Origin: Candidatus Heimdallarchaeum endolithica
GTDB lineage: Archaea > Asgardarchaeota > Heimdallarchaeia > Heimdallarchaeales > Heimdallarchaeaceae
NCBI GenBank assembly: GCA_021513715.1
Contig: CP084167.1
Location: 2,848,001 to 2,912,000 of the forward strand
Direction of reading: 5' to 3'
DNA length: 64,000 nt
In this document: in pieces, positions 49,614-64,000 of the stretch
Layout: every line of letters starts with the position of its first letter
How positions within the stretch are numbered: the stretch's first letter is position 1
Notes under the pieces: generated by a model
What the model saw: the letters and a program-made list of their open reading frames with translations, nothing else
Databases searched by the model: none
Told to the model about the DNA's origin: nothing
Made by a program: the position numbers and the translations under genes

Positions 49614-51020
49614 TTAAATAAAATCTCCTGTTTCTATTTTCTGTGGGAGGTAAAAGTTTGTAATAAATTGTGGATCACGTGCGTTTAGTGCCTGAATTTC
49701 CGCTTTGTATCCTGTGTTTATTAGTATTTCAAGTTGTTCTTGCCACTTTGGTTTTCTTTTTACGAACTCTTCCTCTAACATTAGTTTAGATCGTCTTATG
49801 TCTTTTTGAGTCATTTTAATTAGTGCTTCTCTAGGTATATCAAATCCACTTTCAGGTTTTAGATCACTTGGAAGCAAACCTAACCATTTAATATTTGGAA
49901 CTGCAAGATGAGTAGATTCGAAACTAAGAGCCTTACTCCCAACACTATATACTCTCATGATTTCGAAACCGTAAGGGTCAGCATCCATAATAGCAAGAAT
50001 AGGTAGTTGTAAATCATCGTTTATTTTCTTTAAAAATTGCCTTGTTGCCATATCAGGCTGACCTTTAGCTGTAACTAAAATACTTGGGACATAATCGTAA
50101 AAATGATCTTCTGCTAACCTGTTAAAAATAGCATCTTTTTCTATAACTAAACAAAATTCAGCATCACTTTCCAAATCTTCAATATCATCTATATTTGGAG
50201 AAATAGCCTTTCCTGAACCAATAGCTCTGCAGTCAATGAGATCTCCCTTTTCCTTGAATTGCAACTTACCAACAACAATTCCTTTAGAAGAAGCACTAAC
50301 ATTTAATGATGTTCTAGTAGCTTGAATCATCGCTCCTAAATCTTCAATAAGAGAATCAGAAACTGCTTGTTTCTTAAATGCATTAACATTCATGTAAAAA
50401 ATATCTCTTTTTGTACTGTGGATATCTCGGGAGAGTATATCATGAAGAAGCCTCATTAGTATAGACATTTGTTCAATTGTACTTACAGAAGATAAACTTC
50501 TAAATTGGCGTTCTATCATCTGCCTTCCAATAAGTACTAGCTCTTGTTCTTCATCAAAGCCAATATTTCTTTTTCCTCTTGAAGGGATTTTAAAACCAGC
50601 TTCATCAGGATTGTTAAGTGCTTCATTCAAAAATAATAGCGCTGCTTCAACAATTTTGTTTTTAGCTTTTTCTGAAGACATTGTTTCTACATTAGTTACA
50701 CCATAAGGTAACTCGTAGTCTTGTAATAAAGTAAGTTCATTCCTAAGTTTTCTTATTTTATCAACTGAAACTTTTCTTTTGATTTCAATTCTCATTAATT
50801 CCTTTTTAAGAGAATAATTACTAAGGACTTTACCTTTATCTAAGGAATACCACTTCTTTCCACTTCTCAAAAAGAGTACAAAAGAACCTTTTCTAAGTTC
50901 AAATTCGTCCTGTAATATCTGGTATAATTCGTTTATTTGAATGCTATTATCAAAACTCATCTTTACTTCAGTTGAAGGCAAAATTGTTGCATTTTTTACT
51001 AAAAAATTATATCTTACCAT
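49614..51020 (-). CDS. top6A: DNA topoisomerase VI subunit A (Spo11 family) with N-terminal ubiquitin-like domain
   Basis: IPSR...N, STKRDIFY (catalytic Tyr), Q..SD..IED, Toprim IEKDA, KGQPD.ATR, DADPYG, KAEIQAL. Confidence 0.96.
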   Translation of the reverse strand: MVRYNFLVKNATILPSTEVKMSFDNSIQINELYQILQDEFELRKGSFVLFLRSGKKWYSLDKGKVLSNYSLKKELMRIEIKRKVSVDKIRKLRNELTLLQDYELPYGVTNVETMSSEKAKNKIVEAALLFLNEALNNPDEAGFKIPSRGKRNIGFDEEQELVLIGRQMIERQFRSLSSVSTIEQMSILMRLLHDILSRDIHSTKRDIFYMNVNAFKKQAVSDSLIEDLGAMIQATRTSLNVSASSKGIVVGKLQFKEKGDLIDCRAIGSGKAISPNIDDIEDLESDAEFCLVIEKDAIFNRLAEDHFYDYVPSILVTAKGQPDMATRQFLKKINDDLQLPILAIMDADPYGFEIMRVYSVGSKALSFESTHLAVPNIKWLGLLPSDLKPESGFDIPREALIKMTQKDIRRSKLMLEEEFVKRKPKWQEQLEILINTGYKAEIQALNARDPQFITNFYLPQKIETGDFI

Positions 51021-51030
51021 TTTTTACACC

Positions 51031-54000
51031 TTATTTTGTACTCCTTTTTTTACTTTCAATCTTTTTATCTGCAGTAATTTCATCTAAAGTTGTTTGTTTT
51101 GTCCTTTTTGCTGTTGTTTTCTTTGCTGTTGTACTTGGTTTTTTTGCTGTTGCTGTTGTTTTCTTTGTTGTTGTTTTCTTTGCTGTTGCTGTTGTTTTCT
51201 TTGTTGTTGTTTTCTTTGCTGTTGCTGTTGTTTTCTTTGTTGTTGTTTTCTTTGCTGTTGTTGTTTTCTTTGTTGTTGTTTTCTTTGCTGTTGTTGTTTT
51301 CTTTGCTGTTGTACTTGGTTTTTTCTTTGCTGTTGTACTTGGTTTTTTTGCTGTTGTTGTTTTCTTTGCTGCTGTTGTTTTCTTTGCTGTTGTACTTGGT
51401 TTTTTTGCTGTTGCTGTTGTTTTCTTTGCTGTTGTTGTTTTCTTTGTTGTTGTTTTCTTTGCTGTTGCTGTTGTTTTCTTTGCTGTTGTACTTGGTTTTT
51501 TTGCTGTTGCTGTTGTTTTCTTTGCTGTTGTACTTGGTTTTTTTGCTGTTGCTGTTGTTTTCTTTGTTGTTGTTTTCTTTGCTGTTGTTGTTTTCTTTGC
51601 TGTTGTACTTGTTTTGTTTTTTACAAAAGGAATTGATTGTTTAATTTTCTTTATATCATTATAAGTCATCTCTAGTTTTCCTTCGAGCTGTGATGTTGGA
51701 TAAACAATAAATTCTCCGATTGTATTAATTCCGAGTGATTTTAGCTTATTTCGTATTCCCTGCTTAACATCCAACTTTTCTATTGGTTCTTCTATTAGCT
51801 TTTGTAACTTTTGTACATTTTCGTTTTTGAAAGTGTCTTTTTTCTTCACCCGATTATCAGCAAAGATCAACTCTTCAAAAGAATATATTCCTATTTCCTT
51901 CAGTTTTAATATTGTCTCACTACTCATAAATGGTGTATTTTTTACTATTTGCGTTTTACCTTTTTTTGCTATTTTTAGAGATTGAGGAGTTAAAGTAGCA
52001 AAATAGTTTTTCAACTGTCTTTCTGTTATATTAGTAATTTCAGTTAGTTCATTAATTCTTGTATTAAAAACGTCCCAGAGAGAATACTTCTGTTTATGGT
52101 ATAATTTAAAAATACTGTTTGGCTTATCCTGCATTAGTGCATAGAATGAGTAAATTGGGTATGAAAGAAGTTCTTTTAATGTGGATATCTGTTTAATTGT
52201 TAACTCTGTTTGCTCTTTAATCCTTTTATCAGAAACTGATAAATGTATAATGTGGGAAAAGCCTCCGTTTTCTAAGATAGATTTTTCAGTATCCGAAAAT
52301 AGACCTAAATCTTTGATTCTGTAACTATTTAGTTCTAATTGTTCCTTCACTTTAGTCATATTAAGAGAATGAAGAAGTTCAGTAAATTCTGCATGTTGTT
52401 TTTCTGTAAATTTAATATGTAAATCATCTATATTTTGTAAAAAGAAAAGATCATAAATTTGTTCATAACCTCTTTTTGATAGTTGGGAAAGTATGTTCTT
52501 TTGACGTATAAATAATGCTAATGATGCTCTAAAACAAGAAAGAACGTCTTTTACTTTCATCGATAAATCGCTTATATTTTTTTCTTCAAACAAAGCAATT
52601 AGTTCACCTAATGAATTTATATCATTTTTATTTAGCTCGTTAATTATTTCTTTATCATTTACAAATTCTATAAGTTTAGAATTACTTTGAGCTGTTAATG
52701 AATCTAGATTATGGAATGGAATTTGAGATAAAAAGTTTTTAAGAACAGTTATGTCTGTGGATTTATTTAATAATAGTAAATCATAGACTGTTTTTATGTT
52801 ATTTTTTAGTAGAAGCTTAAATGTTTCCTTACTTTCAAAGACAAGTGGAAGAGAGTAAATTTTTTGTTCTATTCTTAAACGGAGTTTTTCTGTAATCTTC
52901 CATCTCTTTGAAGTTTTTGACTTTGAAACAAGATTAAAGATATAAGCCTCTTCTATGGAGAAAATGTGACCTTGACTTAAAACATCTAATTCAGTTTTAT
53001 CCAAAATTGTTTCTGGAATGGGGGTTAACTTCGATGCAAGAGTACGTAAAGTTTCTAATGATAGATTTCGAATCTGACGTATTAGTTTATTATCATCGAT
53101 TATCTGATTTAACTGGTATTTAGGTTTTAAAATTAAATCTCCAATTGTTAAGTTGCCATATTGTTTGTATTTCTTTTTATTCTCAAAACTTTCACCTACT
53201 AGCAAAATAATGTGCCTATTTAGAAATTGTAAGTATTCATTAAAGTGTAAAGTTATGTTCTCAGGAAAAGAGCTTGTAATATTGTCAAATTTCTTTTTAT
53301 CATATTTCTCCAAAAGAAGTAAAGATTCAAGGGTATGTTGGATTTTTTGTTCATCTTCTTCAGGGAGATTCAACTTTTCTTCGAGTTTGGTTGGTTTTGA
53401 GAAAATAAATGAGTAAATATCAAGTAGCCTTTTTGACACTTGAGAGTCTACTTTTAGAGAGTCATGATGCATATTAAAGAAAACTAATTGTTGAAAACTT
53501 AAGTTGGGAAGTTTTTCATCAAAATATCGTGAAGAGAGTTTTTGTAAAAGTTCAATTTTTGTTCTTAATGAAGGTGAAAGGTTGGAAAAAACATCGGTGT
53601 TTTCAAAAAGATCAAGATAATTTTTAATACTATTTTCTCTTAATTCAGCAATATCAAAATCTTGTAGAACAATATTTGTTTTTAGAGCAGGAGGATTGCT
53701 TATCCTAGAAATAGTAATTTTACTAAGAAAAGTGTCAACTTCACTATTCTTTGTGTCTATAATTTTTGCAAGATCTGATTTAGATAACAAAAGCATTTCT
53801 TGTATAGTACTTACTTTGGACAAAAGTTTCAACCAATTTTCAAGAGGAAGTTGTGGAAAAGAAATTAGATAAATAGACTTGTTTAATATTTTTAGAACAT
53901 TATTTCGTAATTTACTTCTCAGTCTACTGTGTTTCTTTGATAAATCATAAATCAAATCATCAACAACTGTATAATATTTCAATAATTCTTTCTTTGTTTC

Positions 54001-57000
54001 ACTATCAAATAGCATAATATTAGAAAGTTGAACTCTTTTATCTCTCAATTTTCTAATTGTGTTAAGATTCAAAGTTGAGAGAACGCGATTAACTTTCTCA
54101 AGTTGTTTTTCTGTTAAGAATGAAGAATATGAAATTGGCTTAATTAGTAAATCTTTCAGTGTTTCGATTTTATGTTCATTTAGTTTTTCTATTTCTTTTT
54201 CTGTAAAATCTGTTACTATAGAGATGGAACTGTTGAGAAGATTTAAAATTTCTAACCCTTTTTTAGTAAGAGTCTGTTTGTTCATGTACAATACAGAAAT
54301 AAGATCGATTATATTTGAGATATCTGGAATTTCAATGTTTTTACTGAATAAGTCTTTTGAATTAATAGTACCAAGAAAATCTCCTGTTTTTAATGTAAGA
54401 GATAATGTTTTCTTTTTATCTTTAATCAGATTACTAATTATTGTGCTATAACCACCTAAGTTGATTAGTTTATCGTTTTTGATAAGATCCTTGACAGTGA
54501 AAAGATTGTTGTCAAAATATTTTGTTTCAATTTCTTCAAATTCTAAGGAATTAATAGCACCTAAAAATAGGATTGAAGTATCTAATATTTGTTTTATTTT
54601 TGTTTTTATTTTATTTATCTTTTTTATATCGTAAAGCCAGCTGTATATTGAATTCTCTTCTAAATCTGAAAAACTATAGAACCCATAAGAAGACAATATG
54701 TCCTTTTCTTTTTCACTAAGAAATGGCAAATCTACTAAATGATTGGGTTTATCATGTTCAATTGCATTTTTTATGTTTTCTATCTTAATTGATGAACGAA
54801 GTTTTAATATTTGATCAAGTTTAATCCTTGATTTGTGTGCAAGTGTTTTATATGGGATAAGAAGTAAATCTGCAATAGTATATATTCCACCTTTTTTAAG
54901 ATTAGTTTCTAATTTCTCTTCTAATCCTAAGTATCGAATATTAGCTAGTAAATAGGGACTAATTTCTGCAAATATGTTTTTATCTTTTAGGTTAATATCT
55001 CCAAGTAATTCTTGATAAGACAAGTATCCTAGTTTCATTATTTTTTCTTCATATGAAGTTAAAGGAGGGCTAAATTGTTCAAGTTGTAGATTCTTTAATG
55101 TTGATAGACTTGATAAAATTTCATCAACCATTTCATCTTTCAGATTTTGAATAGAGGAAATAACATCAATAATATGAATTATATTTTTGCTATAGCAATA
55201 TTCTATTGTAGAGAGTGTTAGTATAGGTAGATTATTTATATTTCTACATAATTTCATTCTAATGTTTCTAATTTCTTCAAGATATGAATCAGGCAAATTT
55301 GAGAAAAATTCTTCAGGGAAGTAATATAAGTATTCAATAGAGAAAACTCCTAAATTATATAATTTTTGAACTAATGATTTATTTAACTTCAAATTAGCTA
55401 TATCAAGAGTAGAGAATTGAAGAGAAGATAGGTTTCTAATGAAGAGAGAATTGTTCTCTTTTATCATCTTATTTAATTCTGGAAGATAGCTTTCCCACAA
55501 ATAAATTGGAATATGAAGATAGTCATAATAGGTGTTTTTATTTTTCAATGAAGATTCAACATTTATTATTGAAATGCCAAATATTCGTTCAATTGTTTTT
55601 ATTGGTGTAAAGAGAACAGGAAAATTGACTATCAGTTTTTCTTTTTCTTCTTTGCTTATTTCTATTTGATTAACGTCTTGATAAAATAGCTGAATCAAAG
55701 AGTAAATTTCATTTTCATTAAGATGTTTAATCGTAGAAATTTCTGGTTTTTCAATTGTTTTTAGACTAGTACCTTCCTTTGCCTCACGCTTTTTGATGAG
55801 TGGGAGTTTACCCTCTCCTGTGATCTCTTCTTCAGTTAAAGATGGTAAAAGGTTTAAGTCAATACCATAGATTTTAAGTTCTGAAATAATATCTTGTTTG
55901 TTTATTTGTGATTTAATAGTTTTTATTTCTTTAAACTCTATTCCAAACAATTGGCTTAAGGAAGCTGAAGGAATGGTTAAGAATTCAAGAATTGTGTTAA
56001 TTTTGTTGTTCAAAAGAATAGAATTTTGCTGTAATGAGAGAGAATTTAAGAAGGAAGTTGGAGTTGAACCAAACAAAGAGAGAGTCTTTTTTATTGTAGC
56101 TAGATTTTTATCTTCTAAGCTGTAATCTTGTAAACAAAGAAGTTGATCTAAATAATCAATTTTAATCTTTTTTAAAGCTAGCTTCTGTTCCTTCGTCAAA
56201 AACTTTACATCATGTAGTTTGATGGCCCATTTAGGTATTTGAAAATCAGATAAGGAACTTACTAAATATTCTGCCATTTCTGTATTAATCTTTTCTGGGG
56301 GAAGAAGTAATAAATCAAGAATGAGTTTTTTATTTTCTTTTATCAATTTTCTTAAGAACTCGAGTTGTTCTATTTGAGAAAATTTGTCCAACCAAATAAT
56401 TGGATATTTAACCTTGTTTGTGAGGGATTCAGAGTTATTAAAGAGGATTTGAGAACCAATAACAAATGGTTGAGGAAGTAAATCGAGTAAATTAATAACG
56501 TCGAGAGAGGTCTTAATATTTAGTTTATCATTCTTGTTTGATAGAATATCCAAATGGTCTTTAGGGATCAGATTAACCAATTTTTCTTTGGAAAACTCTT
56601 TTACAAAACGGATAATCTCTGTTCTAGCATTTGAAGGAATTGATCTTTTTTCTTCAGAACTGAGTGTAAGAAGTTCAATGATGTTTTTTACTTCGTTTTT
56701 CCACAAATCAAGCTTGACATCTAAAGATATTTCAGGTATAGAAAAAATGTTTAGGCTTAAACCATAGATAAATTCTTCAAGTTTAGCGATGCTACTTGCT
56801 TTTTCTATTTTTTCACTTTCAGAGAATATAAGAAGATATTCTGGTACCAACCCAAAGATATCTTCAAATGATGCCTTTGAAAGGTTAAACTTAAAGTTTG
56901 TGAGTGCACTCATTAACTCTTTATCTTCCTCAAGAATTGGAATGCCTGAACTAAGACTTATATTTCCTTTTCTTTTCTCCTTTAGTTCTTCAGGGATAAA

Positions 57001-60000
57001 ATTAAGGATACTCTTAAGATCTTTTTCTCTAACTGTGAAAAGATCAATAACTCGTAGAATGCGATTCTTTGCAAGAGTACGTTTAATAAATCGCGAAAGG
57101 TTTGAAATTCTGAAAATAGAGGAGTTACAAAGAGATAGAAAAACGTCGATATTTTCTTCAAATTCATCTGAAAATGATTTTATTTGATAGCTTAAACTAT
57201 AAAGATCTTGAACTGTTTCTTTATTTAGTTTTTGTAAAGTCATAAGATTTCTCTTTGATAGTAAGGTTAGAGATTCAAGTTTTACTCCTTTTTCTGCTAC
57301 TTCTTTCTGGATTTTTTTAACTGAAACATTTTCCTTTATTTTTATAATTTCTGCCTCTGGTATGTCTAAGATTAATGATATTGTGGTGATATCTTCTGTT
57401 AAGAAAGTAAGTATATCTCCAACTCCAGAATATACAAGCTTGAGCATTTGCTCTAGTTCTAAATCTAAGAAGAATACTGATGAGAGATACAATTTTGCTT
57501 CTTTGAATACATTCATATTCACTAAATAGGGATATGATTTTCTGATTTCAGACATTCTAGAAATGAAGTCTTGGATTGAATAAATCCCAAGTTCATGTAA
57601 CTTTTCAACATATTCATCTGTAATAGAGGGACAATTTTCTAAAGGAATAGCAAAACTAAGTCTTTTCTCTTTTAGTTCGTCTAATGAAAGCAAGTCAAAT
57701 ATGTGGAATTCATTATAAATTGGATTGTTTAGGATTTGAGACAATTGTCCTTTTTCAAAAAGAGACAAATCAATTACAGAGTGAATGTCGTGTAGTTCTA
57801 ACTTCTTTATTTCTTCAAAAGACAAGAAACTGAGGAAAGTTATTGAACCAGATAATAGCTCTTTGAATTCCTTATATTTTTCTTTTTTTAGAATACTGGA
57901 AGCTCCCATTCTTACTCCTGCATAGTATAAAGTTTCTATATCTGATATCCCTATTTCTTGTAACTTAGAAATTTCTGATTCAGTGATAAGAGATGAGGGC
58001 ATAATGGGGTGAGATCTAGTTCTATGTAATTCGACGATTTCACCGTAGGAAAGATTTTCCTTTATTTCATTAATTCTTTTTTGTGTTTCATTGGATATTT
58101 CAGAAAGTTTCTTGGTAGGGGTAGAATAAAAGTCTATTAATGTTGTAATTGAAGATCGACTGAGAGGGAGAGCGAGATTAGCATCAAGGTTTAGAGACGA
58201 AATAGGGATAGATAAATCGCCTATAAGTTTATCTAAACTATTTTCCTCTCTTAATTTGTTTTTTATTTCTAAAAGAGGAGAGCTCTCTTCAAATTCAAGT
58301 TCAAACAAGATACCTAAAGTTACAGTAGAGAAATCGTTCCTTGTTTCTTCATTCAAAAAGTTAAGAAAAGGGGTTATTCCAAGAGGAAGTTCAAAGACTG
58401 AACGAATAAGTGTAATATTACATTTTTCAAAAGCTAGTTGTCTTTCAAACTCACTGAGAGTTTTAATCAAATCCGTACTGGATATCACATCAAGTAGTGA
58501 TGACTCTTCTATGTCATCTAAAATAGAAGAAAAGAAGTCTTTATTGTATGCTGTTGCAGAAATAAAATCAAAGTAATGATAAGCTCTCATGTCAATTAAT
58601 TTGGATGAATAATCTGAAACTGTCCTAAACAATGTTCTGTCTGTTAAATCGTTATCTAATATGAAAATTAAATGGTAGAGATGTGAAATTTTGTTTTGAT
58701 TGAAAATAGTTAAAGAATAATCTGATATTTCCTGAAAAATTCGTAAAGGAAGTGATAATATCTTCTTTAGTGTGAAAACTTTTCGCCAGATAGATGATTT
58801 TCTATCAATGAAAACTTCATCAGGGCAGTAGAAAAGCTCTTGAATAGATTGAAATCCTTCATAACTATAAATTGTTTCTCTACTTAATGTTCTTTGTTCA
58901 TTTTTATCAAAAAGTTTAGTTTCATATGCATAGATTGCCCTTGTTTCATATTCTTCTCTTATTCTTTGAGAAGTTAAAATGTCTATTATTTCTTTAATTT
59001 CTTTTGTTGAAATGTTTAAGATGCTACTGAGTTTAACAGATGAAGTAGAAACAAAATCAACAATTGTTAATATATCAGCTTTTCTAAGTTCTTCTGTTTG
59101 TGAAAAAGAAAGTTTTGGTAAGAAATATACCGGTAAACTGAAAAAGTAGAATATTTCTCCAAGATCTAGACTCCTTTTAATATTGTCAAATCGTTCATCA
59201 GGAACTCCTGTTCTCTCCATTAAGACTTTGGATGATGTAAGTAGAAAACCTAGTAAGGTGTTTATTTTATTTTTCTTTAGAAGAGTAATTATATCTGGAT
59301 CTAACATATCTGACAAATGCTTAAAGCGTAGATTTAACACGTTTTTTAAGTTCTGTATTATTTCCCAAGGAATTGTGTTAATTGCCCATTTCTCTTGTTG
59401 AGTAGAAAAGTATAGGTCTTCAATGGTAAAAATATTGTTTGTTTCTAGAGTTTCTACTATAGAGGGTCTAAAGATGTCGAGTTCAGAAATGTCAGTACCT
59501 GTTTCACTAATTCGAATGTTTTTCTTGTATTTTTTAGCTTCTTCTAGATCAATTTTCAAGATTGAAGCAATTTTCTCATCACTAACAAGGAAAAAGTCTA
59601 TAATTCGTCTAATCCCAGTTTTTCTTAAAGCATTCAGCTGTTCATGAGATAAACTTGTTATTTCAACTTCGTCTACTTCTTTTTCTTGTTTCGTTTCCTC
59701 GTTTAATATTTTCTTCTTTACTGTTTTTTCCCAAGTGACAAGAGTCAAGGGAGAACGCAATAGCTTTTTGAATTTCTCAATTACTCCCCATTTTATAATA
59801 GTTGCACCAAAAGTATAAGGGTGTGTCAAGTAAAAGAGTTTGTCAATAGAATTGTATCCTATAACAAGTAAGGACAGTATTTCTTCTGGTGAAAAACGTT
59901 CTGAATTTTCGAAATCAAAAGAAATTGTAGATACATATTTTCCACTAGCTACTTTTTCATAAAATGGTTGTCCATCTCTATTTAAATCAAAATTGTTTAT

Positions 60001-63000
60001 TAGTTCATCAAAACTCTTCTTTGAAAAATTAAGGAGTGTTCTTAATTCATCAAAACTGTAATTAAAAAATTGATGTAAGGAGTATATTTTTTTTGATGCT
60101 AAAACCTCATAATCTTTAAGTTTCAAACCTTTTATACGAGTGATTGGGAGTTGCAAAAACTGATAGAAGTCAATTATTTCTTGAGATAGCAAAACTTTTT
60201 CAGAAAAATCATCTGAAACTTTAAGATTTTTACTATTTATGTTATCGTAGAATTCTAGTAAGACTTTCCTGTCTTTATTTTTAGAAATTTCTGTTTCAAT
60301 GAATGCAGGTGTTAGTTGAAGAAAATCTCTTATTGTATTTACATCCTTCGTTTTAAGCTTAAGAATTGCATCATTCAAAGATTTTGCTTTAGCTTTTGTT
60401 GGAGCTAATTTTGTTAAAAAGAGTATATCTTCATTCATGAATTCTTGAAAGTTATTCATTTTTGATAGAAACTCAGAGATAGGTGGGAGTTCTTCTTCAA
60501 TATAAAAGTAAAACAACTCTTGTATTGTTGTTTGTTGTTCATTGAATTGTTTGACCAATCTCGGGAAGTGCTTTTTTATAATTTTTAAATTTCCTTTGTA
60601 CAATTGTTTGTTTTTCTTAACCTTGTCAGCAGATATGCTTTGTTTTAAACGAATGATCTCTTCCTCGTTAAGGTTTAGTATTAGAGAGAGTTCTTTATTA
60701 CTCCATATAAGAAACCTCCCTATACAATTTACTCCTACCTCATTTAATACGTTAATTTTCTCATTTAATTCAGGAAAAGCAAAAATTAAAGGTGTTCGTA
60801 ATAATAAATAATCTGAAATGTATTGATTCTTAGTTTGTTCATCTTCAAATCCGAAATCTTCTGGGTTAGAGTATATTAAATCCTCTACTGTATATATTTC
60901 ATACTTGTTTGCTTTGCTTTTCAAAGATAGAAAATTGGGAATGGGTGTACCTATTTTTTTCTTTATTCTTGCAATCTCACTTTTTAATAACCCCATTTCG
61001 CGTAATCTTTTTGAAGGAGTAATCAAGAATGATGTAGAAGTAAATATTTTATTTTCCAATAATCTTTCTTCTGCCTTTTCATTAATTACTTTGAGGTGAG
61101 ATAAATCAAGATCTCTATTTGTTTCATTGAGATGAGTAAGTATGCGAAGTTTCGATTCTTCCAATAAACTATCCACAAAAATAGCTAATTCCTTTTTCAT
61201 TAAAGTTCTTAACTTTGCATTTGCATATTGGGCTAGAGTATCTATGTTCACAGACTTAAAAATGTCTAATATGCTCTTTTTTGTGCTATCATCTATAGTA
61301 GATATTAGTTTTAGTTTGCTTAGAGGAATTGATTTTTCAGTGTTAGCCAGAATAGTAAAGAATCTTGTGTAAATTGAACGCTCTAATTCTTTGATCTCTA
61401 GAAGGTCCTTAGTTGGTTTTTCAAGAAAATTTTTTATTGTCTCTATCTTTCGTCTATGGAAAGCATTTTTAGTATAACCGTCTATCCAGTCAGGTTTCAT
61501 TTTTGTTATATTAGTTTTTAGAAATTCAGGAAACTTCTGTGAAATATGCGAAAATACTTTCTTAATATAATCAATCAAGATTTCTGTTAAATCATTTTCA
61601 TATTTATAAGAAAAGGGCTCATTAAACTTGAAAATAAAATCTTCTAGTCCTCTAAACTTATTTGAAAAGTTGGGATAGGTTGTTTTTACATAGTTGAAGT
61701 CAGGATATAGAAATTCTTCTTTTAATTCTGAATAAGCAGACATGGTATCCAAATTGAACTTAAATTCTTGAATAAAACTTGATAAATCGACTGTTTCTTC
61801 TGAGTTTTGAGATTTCGTAATTTCACTAATTAACTTAAATTTGTTTCCCTCTATTAAACGCTCTACTAATCCTTCAACAAAACGTAATTGTGTAGCTTCT
61901 GTTGCTAAATAGTGATAACTATTTTGAATCCATCTTTGATATAAAGCTTCATTGAAACTACTACTTGTTCCTCTTGCAAACCTTTTATCAATTGTTTTGT
62001 TTGTTAATGCTTTCAGAGGAAGTTCAGGGCTCAACTTGGACCTGTCTAATTCATAAATTGTCCTTTGCTTTATTCTTGAAACTTCTTTTTTTGAAAGATT
62101 TAGAATTGTGGACAATTCTGAAATTGGTATAGAGAGAAACTTTCCTATTGTTAAAATATTATTTTTAGCACAATTGTTTTTATATTTGTCTGGACACCAC
62201 ACATTAAGTTCAAAAATCGGTGTTCCTAAAGGAACAAAATTCCTAATTTTCTTTTTTGCTCCATGGGCAAGAGCTGCTGCAACCTTATATTTCTCTTTAT
62301 TTATATTTGTATAAACTATTTTTTCATTCTCCAATATTCTAGCGAGATTATCGATTACAACAGGGGCTGATCTTACAAAACGAGATAATCTTGCATGTTC
62401 TCTTTTTCTTCTTTTTGCTCTACTTAGGAAAGTTTTTAGTCTTCTACCAAGTTGTTGCAAAGCTAATCTTATCTCTTCTTCAATCTCAGGAACAGTTGAA
62501 ATATACTCTTTACTAGTTTCAGGAAAAGGAATTTTTGTACTTACTATTGACACAGCAATAGCTAGCGGGTCTGATTGTCTTGTAAGTCCATATTCGCTCC
62601 AATTTAAAGAAGAAACTACTTTTGTAATAACATCATTTCCCGCACCAAAAATTAGAGGAATTCTATTTGCATATCTGTAAATTATTTTATTATCAACTGA
62701 TGTGCTTCCTTTTTGTTGGGCATATTTAGATACTCCACCTCCATAACCTATTGCAGCTTCTACAATAAAAGGGTGGCCAGAGTAAGCTTTTGGAGGACGA
62801 GAAATTGCTTCAACAAATTCTGGTTCAAGTTCTTTTTCTAAACCTTTTCTTAGTCTTGCTGCTCCTAAAGGAGAAAGAGCATCACCTTGTGGAGCGTCGA
62901 ATCTAAAGATCCTATCCCTCTTTCTTTTTATTTCTTTAGCTTCTTGGTATGCTTTAATGAATCCTTCATGAACTATTCTTCTAATTTCTTTTGAAGTAAG

Positions 63001-63936
63001 TTCGCTTGGTTTTTTGTTAGGATCAATTTCCAAAATTTGAAAGAATTCCTCAGCAACTTCCTTTCTCACTCCCATGAAGTCTTTTGATAAAAATTCGATT
63101 AGATCATTTGCAGAGGTTGCAGCTATTTTTGCTTTGAATTGAGTAATATCACAACCAAATGGGTGTAGTTGAATTACTTTTGGAGGATCTGGCATGTCAT
63201 CTACTACTTTTTGAAAAACTAGTTTTTCACTTGTTCCTTCTTCATCTCCAGGTAGTACTACAGTGAAACTAGCATAAGGGGTAATTATTGCTAATTGCTT
63301 AAAGTATTCTTTAATGCTGTTTTTTGCTAGATTCCAAGCTCCAGTGAAAGTTATACTTATCTCAGTTCCACTAGTATGTAAATATCCTTGGTCATCAGGA
63401 TAATATTCATGCTGCTCCATGATGACTGGTTCATTTTTTTCTAAATTAATCATTAAATGAACTTCATTTGTCATTTCTTCCATGAAGTATCTGCTTTTTA
63501 TTCTTGCAGGAAGATCAACTGAAGACATAGAGTGAATTAAACACATCTTGGCTCCTAAACCAAATCTTCCTCTAGTTTGAATCACTCCATATTTTGTCCC
63601 TGTTAATACTCGACCAAAAAGGTTCGGAATCTCGTGACCTGGAACACCTACACCATTATCTCTGCATGTTAACTGAAGAAAATCAAGATGTTTTTCTAAT
63701 TGTTTATATCTAGTAATATCTAATAATTCATTAATTTCAGAACTAGTTAGTTTTCTTAATTCAACATATATTTCTGGATTTACACCTAGTTTTTCAGCTG
63801 CATCTAAACCATTTTCAACTAACTCTCTAACTGATGTGAAAACAGCTCGCATTGAATTACCAAAACCTGCAATAGCCTTATTTTCATTAAAAAAAGCAGC
63901 TGCACTCATTTTTCGTGTTTTATTTTCTTCAGTCAC
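51031..63936 (-). CDS. top6B: Giant DNA topoisomerase VI subunit B with tandem HhH array and H1-like tail (~4300 aa)
   Basis: N-terminal ~550 aa: ELVENGLDA, DNG.G, L.GTKY, RGRFGLG, GTEI, H2TH, RYANRIPL, W..YGL, STKIPF...SKE; single open frame of 12.9 kb; GTG at 63936 follows AGGAGTGA (track start 63945). Confidence 0.93.
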   Translation of the reverse strand: MTEENKTRKMSAAAFFNENKAIAGFGNSMRAVFTSVRELVENGLDAAEKLGVNPEIYVELRKLTSSEINELLDITRYKQLEKHLDFLQLTCRDNGVGVPGHEIPNLFGRVLTGTKYGVIQTRGRFGLGAKMCLIHSMSSVDLPARIKSRYFMEEMTNEVHLMINLEKNEPVIMEQHEYYPDDQGYLHTSGTEISITFTGAWNLAKNSIKEYFKQLAIITPYASFTVVLPGDEEGTSEKLVFQKVVDDMPDPPKVIQLHPFGCDITQFKAKIAATSANDLIEFLSKDFMGVRKEVAEEFFQILEIDPNKKPSELTSKEIRRIVHEGFIKAYQEAKEIKRKRDRIFRFDAPQGDALSPLGAARLRKGLEKELEPEFVEAISRPPKAYSGHPFIVEAAIGYGGGVSKYAQQKGSTSVDNKIIYRYANRIPLIFGAGNDVITKVVSSLNWSEYGLTRQSDPLAIAVSIVSTKIPFPETSKEYISTVPEIEEEIRLALQQLGRRLKTFLSRAKRRKREHARLSRFVRSAPVVIDNLARILENEKIVYTNINKEKYKVAAALAHGAKKKIRNFVPLGTPIFELNVWCPDKYKNNCAKNNILTIGKFLSIPISELSTILNLSKKEVSRIKQRTIYELDRSKLSPELPLKALTNKTIDKRFARGTSSSFNEALYQRWIQNSYHYLATEATQLRFVEGLVERLIEGNKFKLISEITKSQNSEETVDLSSFIQEFKFNLDTMSAYSELKEEFLYPDFNYVKTTYPNFSNKFRGLEDFIFKFNEPFSYKYENDLTEILIDYIKKVFSHISQKFPEFLKTNITKMKPDWIDGYTKNAFHRRKIETIKNFLEKPTKDLLEIKELERSIYTRFFTILANTEKSIPLSKLKLISTIDDSTKKSILDIFKSVNIDTLAQYANAKLRTLMKKELAIFVDSLLEESKLRILTHLNETNRDLDLSHLKVINEKAEERLLENKIFTSTSFLITPSKRLREMGLLKSEIARIKKKIGTPIPNFLSLKSKANKYEIYTVEDLIYSNPEDFGFEDEQTKNQYISDYLLLRTPLIFAFPELNEKINVLNEVGVNCIGRFLIWSNKELSLILNLNEEEIIRLKQSISADKVKKNKQLYKGNLKIIKKHFPRLVKQFNEQQTTIQELFYFYIEEELPPISEFLSKMNNFQEFMNEDILFLTKLAPTKAKAKSLNDAILKLKTKDVNTIRDFLQLTPAFIETEISKNKDRKVLLEFYDNINSKNLKVSDDFSEKVLLSQEIIDFYQFLQLPITRIKGLKLKDYEVLASKKIYSLHQFFNYSFDELRTLLNFSKKSFDELINNFDLNRDGQPFYEKVASGKYVSTISFDFENSERFSPEEILSLLVIGYNSIDKLFYLTHPYTFGATIIKWGVIEKFKKLLRSPLTLVTWEKTVKKKILNEETKQEKEVDEVEITSLSHEQLNALRKTGIRRIIDFFLVSDEKIASILKIDLEEAKKYKKNIRISETGTDISELDIFRPSIVETLETNNIFTIEDLYFSTQQEKWAINTIPWEIIQNLKNVLNLRFKHLSDMLDPDIITLLKKNKINTLLGFLLTSSKVLMERTGVPDERFDNIKRSLDLGEIFYFFSLPVYFLPKLSFSQTEELRKADILTIVDFVSTSSVKLSSILNISTKEIKEIIDILTSQRIREEYETRAIYAYETKLFDKNEQRTLSRETIYSYEGFQSIQELFYCPDEVFIDRKSSIWRKVFTLKKILSLPLRIFQEISDYSLTIFNQNKISHLYHLIFILDNDLTDRTLFRTVSDYSSKLIDMRAYHYFDFISATAYNKDFFSSILDDIEESSLLDVISSTDLIKTLSEFERQLAFEKCNITLIRSVFELPLGITPFLNFLNEETRNDFSTVTLGILFELEFEESSPLLEIKNKLREENSLDKLIGDLSIPISSLNLDANLALPLSRSSITTLIDFYSTPTKKLSEISNETQKRINEIKENLSYGEIVELHRTRSHPIMPSSLITESEISKLQEIGISDIETLYYAGVRMGASSILKKEKYKEFKELLSGSITFLSFLSFEEIKKLELHDIHSVIDLSLFEKGQLSQILNNPIYNEFHIFDLLSLDELKEKRLSFAIPLENCPSITDEYVEKLHELGIYSIQDFISRMSEIRKSYPYLVNMNVFKEAKLYLSSVFFLDLELEQMLKLVYSGVGDILTFLTEDITTISLILDIPEAEIIKIKENVSVKKIQKEVAEKGVKLESLTLLSKRNLMTLQKLNKETVQDLYSLSYQIKSFSDEFEENIDVFLSLCNSSIFRISNLSRFIKRTLAKNRILRVIDLFTVREKDLKSILNFIPEELKEKRKGNISLSSGIPILEEDKELMSALTNFKFNLSKASFEDIFGLVPEYLLIFSESEKIEKASSIAKLEEFIYGLSLNIFSIPEISLDVKLDLWKNEVKNIIELLTLSSEEKRSIPSNARTEIIRFVKEFSKEKLVNLIPKDHLDILSNKNDKLNIKTSLDVINLLDLLPQPFVIGSQILFNNSESLTNKVKYPIIWLDKFSQIEQLEFLRKLIKENKKLILDLLLLPPEKINTEMAEYLVSSLSDFQIPKWAIKLHDVKFLTKEQKLALKKIKIDYLDQLLCLQDYSLEDKNLATIKKTLSLFGSTPTSFLNSLSLQQNSILLNNKINTILEFLTIPSASLSQLFGIEFKEIKTIKSQINKQDIISELKIYGIDLNLLPSLTEEEITGEGKLPLIKKREAKEGTSLKTIEKPEISTIKHLNENEIYSLIQLFYQDVNQIEISKEEKEKLIVNFPVLFTPIKTIERIFGISIINVESSLKNKNTYYDYLHIPIYLWESYLPELNKMIKENNSLFIRNLSSLQFSTLDIANLKLNKSLVQKLYNLGVFSIEYLYYFPEEFFSNLPDSYLEEIRNIRMKLCRNINNLPILTLSTIEYCYSKNIIHIIDVISSIQNLKDEMVDEILSSLSTLKNLQLEQFSPPLTSYEEKIMKLGYLSYQELLGDINLKDKNIFAEISPYLLANIRYLGLEEKLETNLKKGGIYTIADLLLIPYKTLAHKSRIKLDQILKLRSSIKIENIKNAIEHDKPNHLVDLPFLSEKEKDILSSYGFYSFSDLEENSIYSWLYDIKKINKIKTKIKQILDTSILFLGAINSLEFEEIETKYFDNNLFTVKDLIKNDKLINLGGYSTIISNLIKDKKKTLSLTLKTGDFLGTINSKDLFSKNIEIPDISNIIDLISVLYMNKQTLTKKGLEILNLLNSSISIVTDFTEKEIEKLNEHKIETLKDLLIKPISYSSFLTEKQLEKVNRVLSTLNLNTIRKLRDKRVQLSNIMLFDSETKKELLKYYTVVDDLIYDLSKKHSRLRSKLRNNVLKILNKSIYLISFPQLPLENWLKLLSKVSTIQEMLLLSKSDLAKIIDTKNSEVDTFLSKITISRISNPPALKTNIVLQDFDIAELRENSIKNYLDLFENTDVFSNLSPSLRTKIELLQKLSSRYFDEKLPNLSFQQLVFFNMHHDSLKVDSQVSKRLLDIYSFIFSKPTKLEEKLNLPEEDEQKIQHTLESLLLLEKYDKKKFDNITSSFPENITLHFNEYLQFLNRHIILLVGESFENKKKYKQYGNLTIGDLILKPKYQLNQIIDDNKLIRQIRNLSLETLRTLASKLTPIPETILDKTELDVLSQGHIFSIEEAYIFNLVSKSKTSKRWKITEKLRLRIEQKIYSLPLVFESKETFKLLLKNNIKTVYDLLLLNKSTDITVLKNFLSQIPFHNLDSLTAQSNSKLIEFVNDKEIINELNKNDINSLGELIALFEEKNISDLSMKVKDVLSCFRASLALFIRQKNILSQLSKRGYEQIYDLFFLQNIDDLHIKFTEKQHAEFTELLHSLNMTKVKEQLELNSYRIKDLGLFSDTEKSILENGGFSHIIHLSVSDKRIKEQTELTIKQISTLKELLSYPIYSFYALMQDKPNSIFKLYHKQKYSLWDVFNTRINELTEITNITERQLKNYFATLTPQSLKIAKKGKTQIVKNTPFMSSETILKLKEIGIYSFEELIFADNRVKKKDTFKNENVQKLQKLIEEPIEKLDVKQGIRNKLKSLGINTIGEFIVYPTSQLEGKLEMTYNDIKKIKQSIPFVKNKTSTTAKKTTTAKKTTTKKTTATAKKPSTTAKKTTATAKKPSTTAKKTTATAKKTTTKKTTTAKKTTATAKKPSTTAKKTTAAKKTTTAKKPSTTAKKKPSTTAKKTTTAKKTTTKKTTTAKKTTTKKTTATAKKTTTKKTTATAKKTTTKKTTATAKKPSTTAKKTTAKRTKQTTLDEITADKKIESKKRSTK
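51105..51610 (-). repeat. Imperfect tandem repeat encoding TTAKK/TTTKK/PSTTAKK histone-H1-like tail
   Basis: 15-21 bp units such as TTTCTTTGCTGTTG repeated ~28 times on + strand. Confidence 0.95.
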
Positions 63937-64000
63937 AAAATTCACTCCTTATATTCCGAATTAATGTATACTCATACATTTTTTTTCCATTATTTAAAGA

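What the first reader, a model, noticed from the sequence alone, without database searches (positions are those of the whole stretch)
50772..51020. Ubiquitin-like domain fused to the N-terminus of Topo VI-A (Spo11 homologue)
Seen: the first ~83 aa precede the normal Top6A start. They align by eye with ubiquitin along its length: NFLVKN/QIFVKT, SIQINELYQILQDEFEL/SDTIENVKAKIQDKEGI, FVLFLRSGK/QRLIFAGK, LDKGKVLSNYSLKKE/LEDGRTLSDYNIQKE. There is no C-terminal GG, so it would be an integral, non-cleavable UBL. Established: eukaryotic topoisomerase-DNA adducts are handled through ubiquitin/SUMO, p97 and the proteasome, and Asgard archaea encode ubiquitin systems. Inference: a genetically hard-wired tag that recruits proteasome/Cdc48 or other partners to the DNA-cleaving subunit. 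I know of no described Top6A with this fusion.
Basis: partly seen in the sequence, partly recalled or inferred. Interest (0 to 1): 0.85.

Follow-up and report, generated by a model that had tools for sequence, protein, structure and literature searches.

The report
Ubiquitin-like domain built into Asgard Top6A
The DNA-cutting subunit of topoisomerase VI (the archaeal relative of the meiotic enzyme Spo11) in this Heimdall-group Asgard archaeon starts with a permanently attached ubiquitin-fold domain that no paper I found describes, and it looks more like a fixed structural part of a remodelled enzyme than a destruction tag.

Summary
Confirmed. Residues 1-83 of the 468-aa Top6A (51020-49614, minus strand) are translated: start and ribosome site are conserved in 29 relatives, and dN/dS is 0.06-0.34. 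They fold as a eukaryote-type ubiquitin-like domain (profile hits ubiquitin at E about 5e-6; AlphaFold pLDDT 90; Z 10-12 to ubiquitin, TBCE/TBCB, ISG15). There is no diglycine, so it is not conjugatable. It is the genome's only Top6A and has intact catalytic residues. The fusion arose once (clade 100/100 on the core alone) within the Asgard+eukaryote Top6A group. It occurs in most Heimdallarchaeia and in Borrarchaeum, not in the sampled Loki, Thor or one further Heimdall family, and pairs with a Top6B of over 2000 aa. The proteasome/Cdc48-tag idea is weak: the domain is 14-37% identical between lineages whose free ubiquitins are 47-60% identical, has Lys/Arg at the V70 position, and two independent models place it in one fixed pose on the core (TM 0.92). 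Best reading: an integral docking module of a remodelled topoisomerase VI; function untested. No paper found; RefSeq auto-labels a Borrarchaeum member 'ubiquitin-like protein'. The scan noted this before in other genomes.

The parts
50772..51020 (-). Ubiquitin-like (beta-grasp) domain, aa 1-83 of Top6A: strands 3-10, 17-24, helix 29-40, strands 47-53, 56-59, 76-82
50871..50873 (-). Phe50, at the ubiquitin Ile44 position; the most conserved residue (aromatic/hydrophobic in 100%, Phe about 90%)
   Evidence: register from hhalign to host ubiquitin; conservation
50778..50780 (-). Lys81, at the ubiquitin Val70 position; Lys/Arg in 100% of 77 sequences
50730..50762 (-). Helix alpha1 (aa 87-97), the Asgard/eukaryote-specific N-terminal helix of Top6A, modelled on the Toprim domain; marks the normal Asgard start
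   Evidence: PMC9665070
49614..51020 (-). top6A gene, 468 aa, sole Top6A of the genome; Tyr209, Glu294, Asp346 and Asp348 invariant in 87 homologues
50394..50396 (-). Catalytic tyrosine Tyr209
51027..51031 (-). Shine-Dalgarno-like AGGTG, 6 nt before the ATG and overlapping the top6B stop codon (translational coupling inferred)
   Evidence: similar motifs upstream of 29 homologues
51031..63945 (-). Giant top6B, 4304 aa: GHKL, transducer, long array of HhH/RAD51-N/RpoA-CTD-like modules, basic Lys/Thr tail

Best explanation
An ancestor of Heimdallarchaeia and Borrarchaeum fused a ubiquitin-superfamily gene in front of helix alpha1 of its conserved Top6A. The domain lost the diglycine and became a permanent part of the subunit. 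It packs in a fixed position at the alpha1/Toprim periphery and serves as a structural and docking module of a remodelled topoisomerase VI whose B subunit carries a 1,700-3,700-residue HhH-type DNA-binding tail. Most likely it braces alpha1/Toprim and gives a lineage-specific contact surface (conserved face around Phe50, Lys81, Asn10) for its own holoenzyme, either the Top6A core or a segment of the Top6B tail, rather than for the general ubiquitin machinery. Shown: translation, fold, no GG, single origin, pairing with giant Top6B, fast divergence. Predicted only: the fixed pose. Inferred: the partner and the role.
For: The AlphaFold2 full-length model (pTM 0.83) superposes on an independent ESM Atlas model of a 463-aa homologue over 461 residues including the UBL (TM 0.92, rmsd 2.4 A), so two methods on two sequences give the same domain pose. 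The linker between strand 5 and alpha1 is about 3 residues. Wherever the neighbour is complete, UBL-Top6A sits beside a Top6B of over 2000 aa. In Borrarchaeum the UBL copy follows a 2289-aa Top6B, while the plain copy 10 kb away follows a 557-aa Top6B. UBL identity between lineages is 14-37% against 47-60% for free ubiquitin, which fits a partner that co-evolves within each lineage. The core has UBL-clade-specific conserved residues (Tyr106, Asn300, Tyr310, Asp335, Asp449).
Against: No experiment has been done. Both models are predictions and I could not read their coordinates, so which face is buried is unknown. The co-occurrence with giant Top6B reflects one shared origin, so it is a single event and not many independent ones. 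One Heimdall family has a 1,100-aa HhH-tailed Top6B without the UBL, so a tail does not require it.
Confidence: 0.5

Rival explanations
1. Built-in signal for Cdc48/PAN/proteasome or a JAB protein, giving turnover or clearance of trapped Top6A-DNA adducts.
For: The host encodes free ubiquitin with E1, an E2-like protein and ESCRT genes, two JAB proteins and two Cdc48. A hydrophobic residue is kept at the Ile44 position. 17 of 77 members hit Pfam UN_NPL4 weakly. Eukaryotic type-2 UBLs such as Rad23, Dsk2 and Npl4 bind the proteasome or p97 (established knowledge).
Against: The UBL diverges much faster than free ubiquitin. The Val70 position is Lys/Arg in all members and Arg42 is hydrophobic. 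The same machinery exists in genome G081, which lacks the fusion. The predicted pose is fixed with almost no linker. A constitutive degron on the only Top6A would need extra regulation (inference).
Confidence: 0.17
2. Docking site for an external, lineage-specific accessory factor, analogous in role to RHL1/BIN4 of plant topo VI.
For: A conserved hydrophobic face with fast drift elsewhere. It sits next to helix alpha1, which has been proposed as a partner interface (PMC9665070).
Against: No conserved third gene lies next to the operon: the neighbours differ among lineages.
Confidence: 0.15
3. Extra nucleic-acid-binding surface that helps hold or guide DNA, as do the UBLs of SF3A1 or OASL.
For: Median net charge +4 with conserved basic residues Lys37, Lys55, Lys56, Lys81 and Arg82. 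The partner subunit is expanded with DNA-binding-type modules.
Against: Net charge ranges from -6 to +11 across members. The most conserved residue is an aromatic on the protein-binding face.
Confidence: 0.12
4. Untranslated leader, chance resemblance or neutral passenger.
For: The single sequence has no significant ubiquitin hit. The domain evolves faster than the core.
Against: Conserved start and ribosome site, dN/dS 0.06-0.34 in 13 of 13 pairs, retention in about 70 genomes across two classes, and a confident fold.
Confidence: 0.05

Closest known systems
Conserved Asgard/eukaryote Top6A (plant SPO11-3 type; Brinkmeier 2022 PMC9665070; Feng 2025 PMC12680538)
   Same: Helix alpha1, B-binding helix, 5Y-CAP tyrosine and Toprim acidic residues; falls in the same well-supported clade as the eukaryotic Top6A sequences
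   Different: An 83-aa ubiquitin-fold domain precedes alpha1; neither paper mentions ubiquitin
Canonical archaeal Top6A (S. shibatae 2zbk, M. mazei 2q2e/9o0g, M. jannaschii 1d3y) and yeast Spo11 (8urq)
   Same: Core superposes at Z 22-38 from residue about 113 onwards
   Different: No alpha1 and no UBL in the archaeal structures; the partner Top6B is about 530-620 aa rather than 4304
Integral (type-2) UBL domains: TBCE/TBCB UBL, USP11/15 UBL, Dsk2/parkin UBL, talin F0
   Same: Same fold (Z 10-12), no diglycine, embedded in a multidomain protein
   Different: Only 9-23% identity; host protein is a topoisomerase; no family-specific match
Ubiquitin / Asgard free ubiquitin (type-1 modifiers)
   Same: Closest by sequence profile (E about 5e-6; Pfam ubiquitin in 22 of 77 members)
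   Different: No GG, 4-residue insertion in the strand 3-4 hairpin, basic residue at Val70, 16% identity to the host's own ubiquitin

Membership tests
Top6A/Spo11 | 5Y-CAP domain with catalytic Tyr | tested here: met
   PF04406 E 4e-19; Tyr209 in 87 of 87
Top6A/Spo11 | Toprim with Glu and DxD | tested here: met
   PF21180 E 2e-59; Glu294, Asp346, Asp348 invariant
Topoisomerase VI | Adjacent Top6B with GHKL and transducer | tested here: met
Topoisomerase VI | ATP-dependent strand passage | not testable with these tools
   needs biochemistry
Conserved Asgard+eukaryote Top6A clade | Groups with eukaryotic Top6A apart from divergent copies; carries helix alpha1 | tested here: met
   100/99-100 support; alpha1 at 87-97
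Direct sister of eukaryotic Top6A/Spo11 | UBL clade plus eukaryotes form one clade | tested here: inconclusive
   Best tree: eukaryotes sister to (f7 + Borrarchaeum plain copy + UBL clade), 90/94; AU test does not reject UBL+eukaryotes, p=0.3; only 5 eukaryote-type rows, no TACK
Ubiquitin-like superfamily (eukaryote-type beta-grasp) | Five-strand beta-grasp fold | tested here: met
Ubiquitin-like superfamily (eukaryote-type beta-grasp) | Sequence homology to ubiquitin-clan profiles | tested here: met
Type-1 conjugatable modifiers (ubiquitin, SUMO, SAMP) | C-terminal diglycine released by processing | tested here: not met
   No GG at the junction in 120 homologues
Proteasome/p97-binding UBLs (Rad23, Dsk2, Npl4, UBX) | Intact Leu8-Ile44-Val70-type patch | tested here: not met
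   Ile44 position hydrophobic, but Val70 position Lys/Arg in 100%
Proteasome/p97-binding UBLs (Rad23, Dsk2, Npl4, UBX) | Binding to proteasome receptors or Cdc48 | not tested
   No job spent on it; needs a pull-down

The most novel reading that the evidence does not exclude
In the Asgard lineage closest to eukaryotes, the enzyme related to the ancestor of Spo11/Top6A was genetically wired to the ubiquitin system: the fused UBL is read by Cdc48, the proteasome or a UBL receptor and controls or clears the DNA-cleaving subunit, a hard-coded forerunner of SUMO/ubiquitin control of topoisomerase and Spo11 adducts.
Probability: 0.15. Interest if true: 0.85.

Novelty: new variant of a known kind. Interest (0 to 1): 0.6.

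Why it matters
It is an undescribed domain architecture on the essential type IIB topoisomerase of the archaeal group nearest to eukaryotes, in the same gene clade that gave plant Top6A and Spo11. It shows that integral, non-conjugatable ubiquitin-like domains, usually seen as a eukaryotic device, were already built into core DNA enzymes in Asgard archaea. With the giant HhH-tailed B subunit it defines a remodelled topoisomerase VI that can be expressed and tested. Borrarchaeum offers a natural control, since it carries both a plain and a modified enzyme.

Tried and rejected
Downstream start at Met114: rejected. Single-sequence Pfam and PDB searches of aa 1-107 gave only chance hits such as MxiM. 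ESM Atlas feature search gave nothing at 0.9 or above. Complex prediction of the UBL with Top6A core plus Top6B aa 345-780 returned no answer (score 0.26, mark 0.32, controls not folded); it is not used as evidence either way, and covers only the first about 260 residues of the tail. Mutual-information covariation between UBL and core failed its own control (effective depth about 49; no strand contacts recovered) and was discarded. No ThiS/MoaD/Urm1 family appeared among the listed Pfam or structure matches; these lists are truncated, so this is not proof. The short single-domain library hits are fragments of the same Top6A genes, not stand-alone domains. Weak profile matches in Loki and other genomes are free ubiquitin/UBL genes or noise. 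A fixed link to gyrase is not general: adjacent in Hodarchaeales-type loci, about 430 kb away in this genome, not found in Borrarchaeum G307. Literature searches and in-paper look-ups found no description; subscription journals and supplements are not covered. One search was a mistyped request.

Full report
Observation. The finding covers the first 83 codons of an ORF at 51020..49614 on the minus strand, 468 aa, with the two Top6A Pfam domains at 182-241 and 289-462. It lies 10 bases downstream of a 4304-aa Top6B. The closest named relative is Ca. Heimdallarchaeum aukensis at 97% identity, so the window is a Heimdallarchaeum genome (inference). A family search finds only this one Top6A in the 3.33-Mb single-contig genome. 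Tyr209, Glu294, Asp346 and Asp348 are invariant in 87 homologues.

Is the segment translated? Yes. In 29 related loci the frame opens at the equivalent Met, a few codons after an in-frame stop and behind a purine-rich ribosome site. In the window an AGGTG overlaps the top6B stop, 6 nt before the ATG. The alternative Met114 is Met in only 2 of 25 sequences. dN/dS over codons 2-83 is 0.06-0.34 in 13 pairs, against 0.006-0.074 for the core: purifying selection, but more relaxed.

What is it? Alone, the sequence finds nothing. A profile of 77 homologous N-termini hits ubiquitin in the PDB at E about 5e-6 and returns polyubiquitins as the best non-self matches among 1.84 billion proteins. Borrarchaeum orthologues pass the Pfam cut-offs for ubiquitin and Rad60-SLD, and 22 of 77 members hit Pfam ubiquitin at E up to 0.05. 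AlphaFold2 gives a beta-grasp fold at pLDDT 90. Foldseek ranks ubiquitin first; the wide structural search gives Z 12.1 (TBCE UBL), 11.9 (TBCB), 11.4 (ISG15) and 10.7 (ubiquitin, rmsd 1.8 A over 75 residues). No homologue has GG at the junction, so this is an integral, type-2 UBL. It ends just before helix 87-97, which matches the start of ordinary Asgard Top6A and is the Asgard/eukaryote helix alpha1 that models place on the Toprim domain (PMC9665070).

Distribution and origin. In 400 Asgard genomes the domain is found on about 470-aa Top6A proteins in nearly all genomes of six families of the host's class (Heimdallarchaeaceae, Kariarchaeaceae and Hodarchaeales by the names) and in 3 of 5 of a family identified as Borrarchaeum. 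It is absent from the class's remaining family f7 (0 of 12; probably Gerdarchaeales, inferred) and from the Loki-, Thor- and Odin-type genomes examined, whose conserved Top6A starts at alpha1 or carries other extensions. A tree built on the core alone makes all UBL-bearing proteins one clade (99/98 and 100/100), so the fusion happened once. That clade lies inside the conserved Asgard+eukaryote Top6A group described in PMC12680538. Eukaryotic Top6A is sister to f7 + the plain Borrarchaeum copy + the UBL clade (90/94); a direct UBL+eukaryote clade is not rejected (AU p=0.3) but is not shown. I saw no eukaryotic Top6A with a UBL, on thin sampling.

Partner subunit. Every UBL-Top6A with a complete neighbour pairs with a Top6B of about 2,060-4,300 aa. 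Shorter values are contig ends or a frameshift; one (G064, 1431 aa) was not examined. Lineages without the UBL have Top6B of 499-830 aa, with exceptions at 1,100-1,250 aa including f7. Borrarchaeum has both operons in tandem: plain A after a 557-aa B, UBL-A after a 2289-aa B. Because the origin is single, this is one joint event, not repeated evidence.

Mechanism. The host does encode ubiquitin, E1, an E2-like protein, JAB and Cdc48, but so does an f7 genome without the fusion. Across four lineages free ubiquitin is 47-60% identical while the UBL is 14-37%. Aligned to the host's ubiquitin, Phe50 takes the Ile44 position and is the most conserved residue, but the Val70 position is Lys/Arg in all 77 sequences and Arg42 is replaced by a hydrophobic residue: a conserved face, but not ubiquitin's. 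The full-length AlphaFold model (pTM 0.83) superposes on an independently predicted 463-aa homologue across all 461 aligned residues (TM 0.92, rmsd 2.4 A), which implies one fixed pose of the UBL on the core. Both are predictions. I therefore favour an integral structural and docking module of the remodelled holoenzyme (0.5) over a degradation tag (0.17), an external-partner site (0.15) or a DNA-binding surface (0.12).

Novelty. Searches of open literature and look-ups in the main Top6A and Asgard papers found no mention. Automatic pipelines have registered it without comment: RefSeq WP_287583880.1 is named 'ubiquitin-like protein', as is the ESM Atlas cluster. This scan reported the same fusion in other genomes; my tests agree and add the selection, rate and fixed-pose evidence. 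Verdict: real, a new variant of known parts, function untested; interest 0.6.

Noticed in passing
L106, L107, L109, L112 (family f31, Thorarchaeia by the Atlas cluster): The conserved Top6A carries N-terminal HhH_5 repeats (685-951 aa), a mirror image of the HhH array on Top6B in the Heimdall lineage.
   Followed up: partly
L124-L125 (G307, Borrarchaeum, C6 515-530 kb): Two topo VI operons in tandem, plain and modified, separated by a 968-aa HEAT-like repeat gene; no GyrA found in this genome.
   Followed up: partly
window 51031-51630 (-): Top6B ends in a Lys/Thr/Ala tandem-repeat tail and a Q-x-T-L-x-D/E motif shared with several family members, possibly a clamp-binding motif.
   Followed up: no
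window 61800-62400 (-), Top6B aa about 520-720: Segment after the transducer with motifs conserved in UBL lineages and different in f7; a candidate contact region.
   Followed up: partly
L177 (G000 C1 1.700-1.715 Mb): Free ubiquitin ending in GGF beside E1, an E2-like gene, Vps4 and two ESCRT-III genes.
   Followed up: no
G000 C1 2465029-2467680: GyrA match is split within one 1270-aa frame, probably by an intein.
   Followed up: no
L178, L179, L158, L183, L188: Tandem Asgard UBL genes with acidic N-termini that end in TAG/SAG-type motifs instead of GG, near JAB genes in G066 and G307.
   Followed up: no
L192:7914-8816: In one Hodarchaeales contig a separate 300-aa gene lies between a 2058-aa Top6B and UBL-Top6A, possibly a split-off end of the tail.
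   Followed up: no
L080, L081, L086, L115: Divergent second-copy Top6A proteins with a winged-helix-like N-terminal extension (442-457 aa), judged by eye.
   Followed up: no
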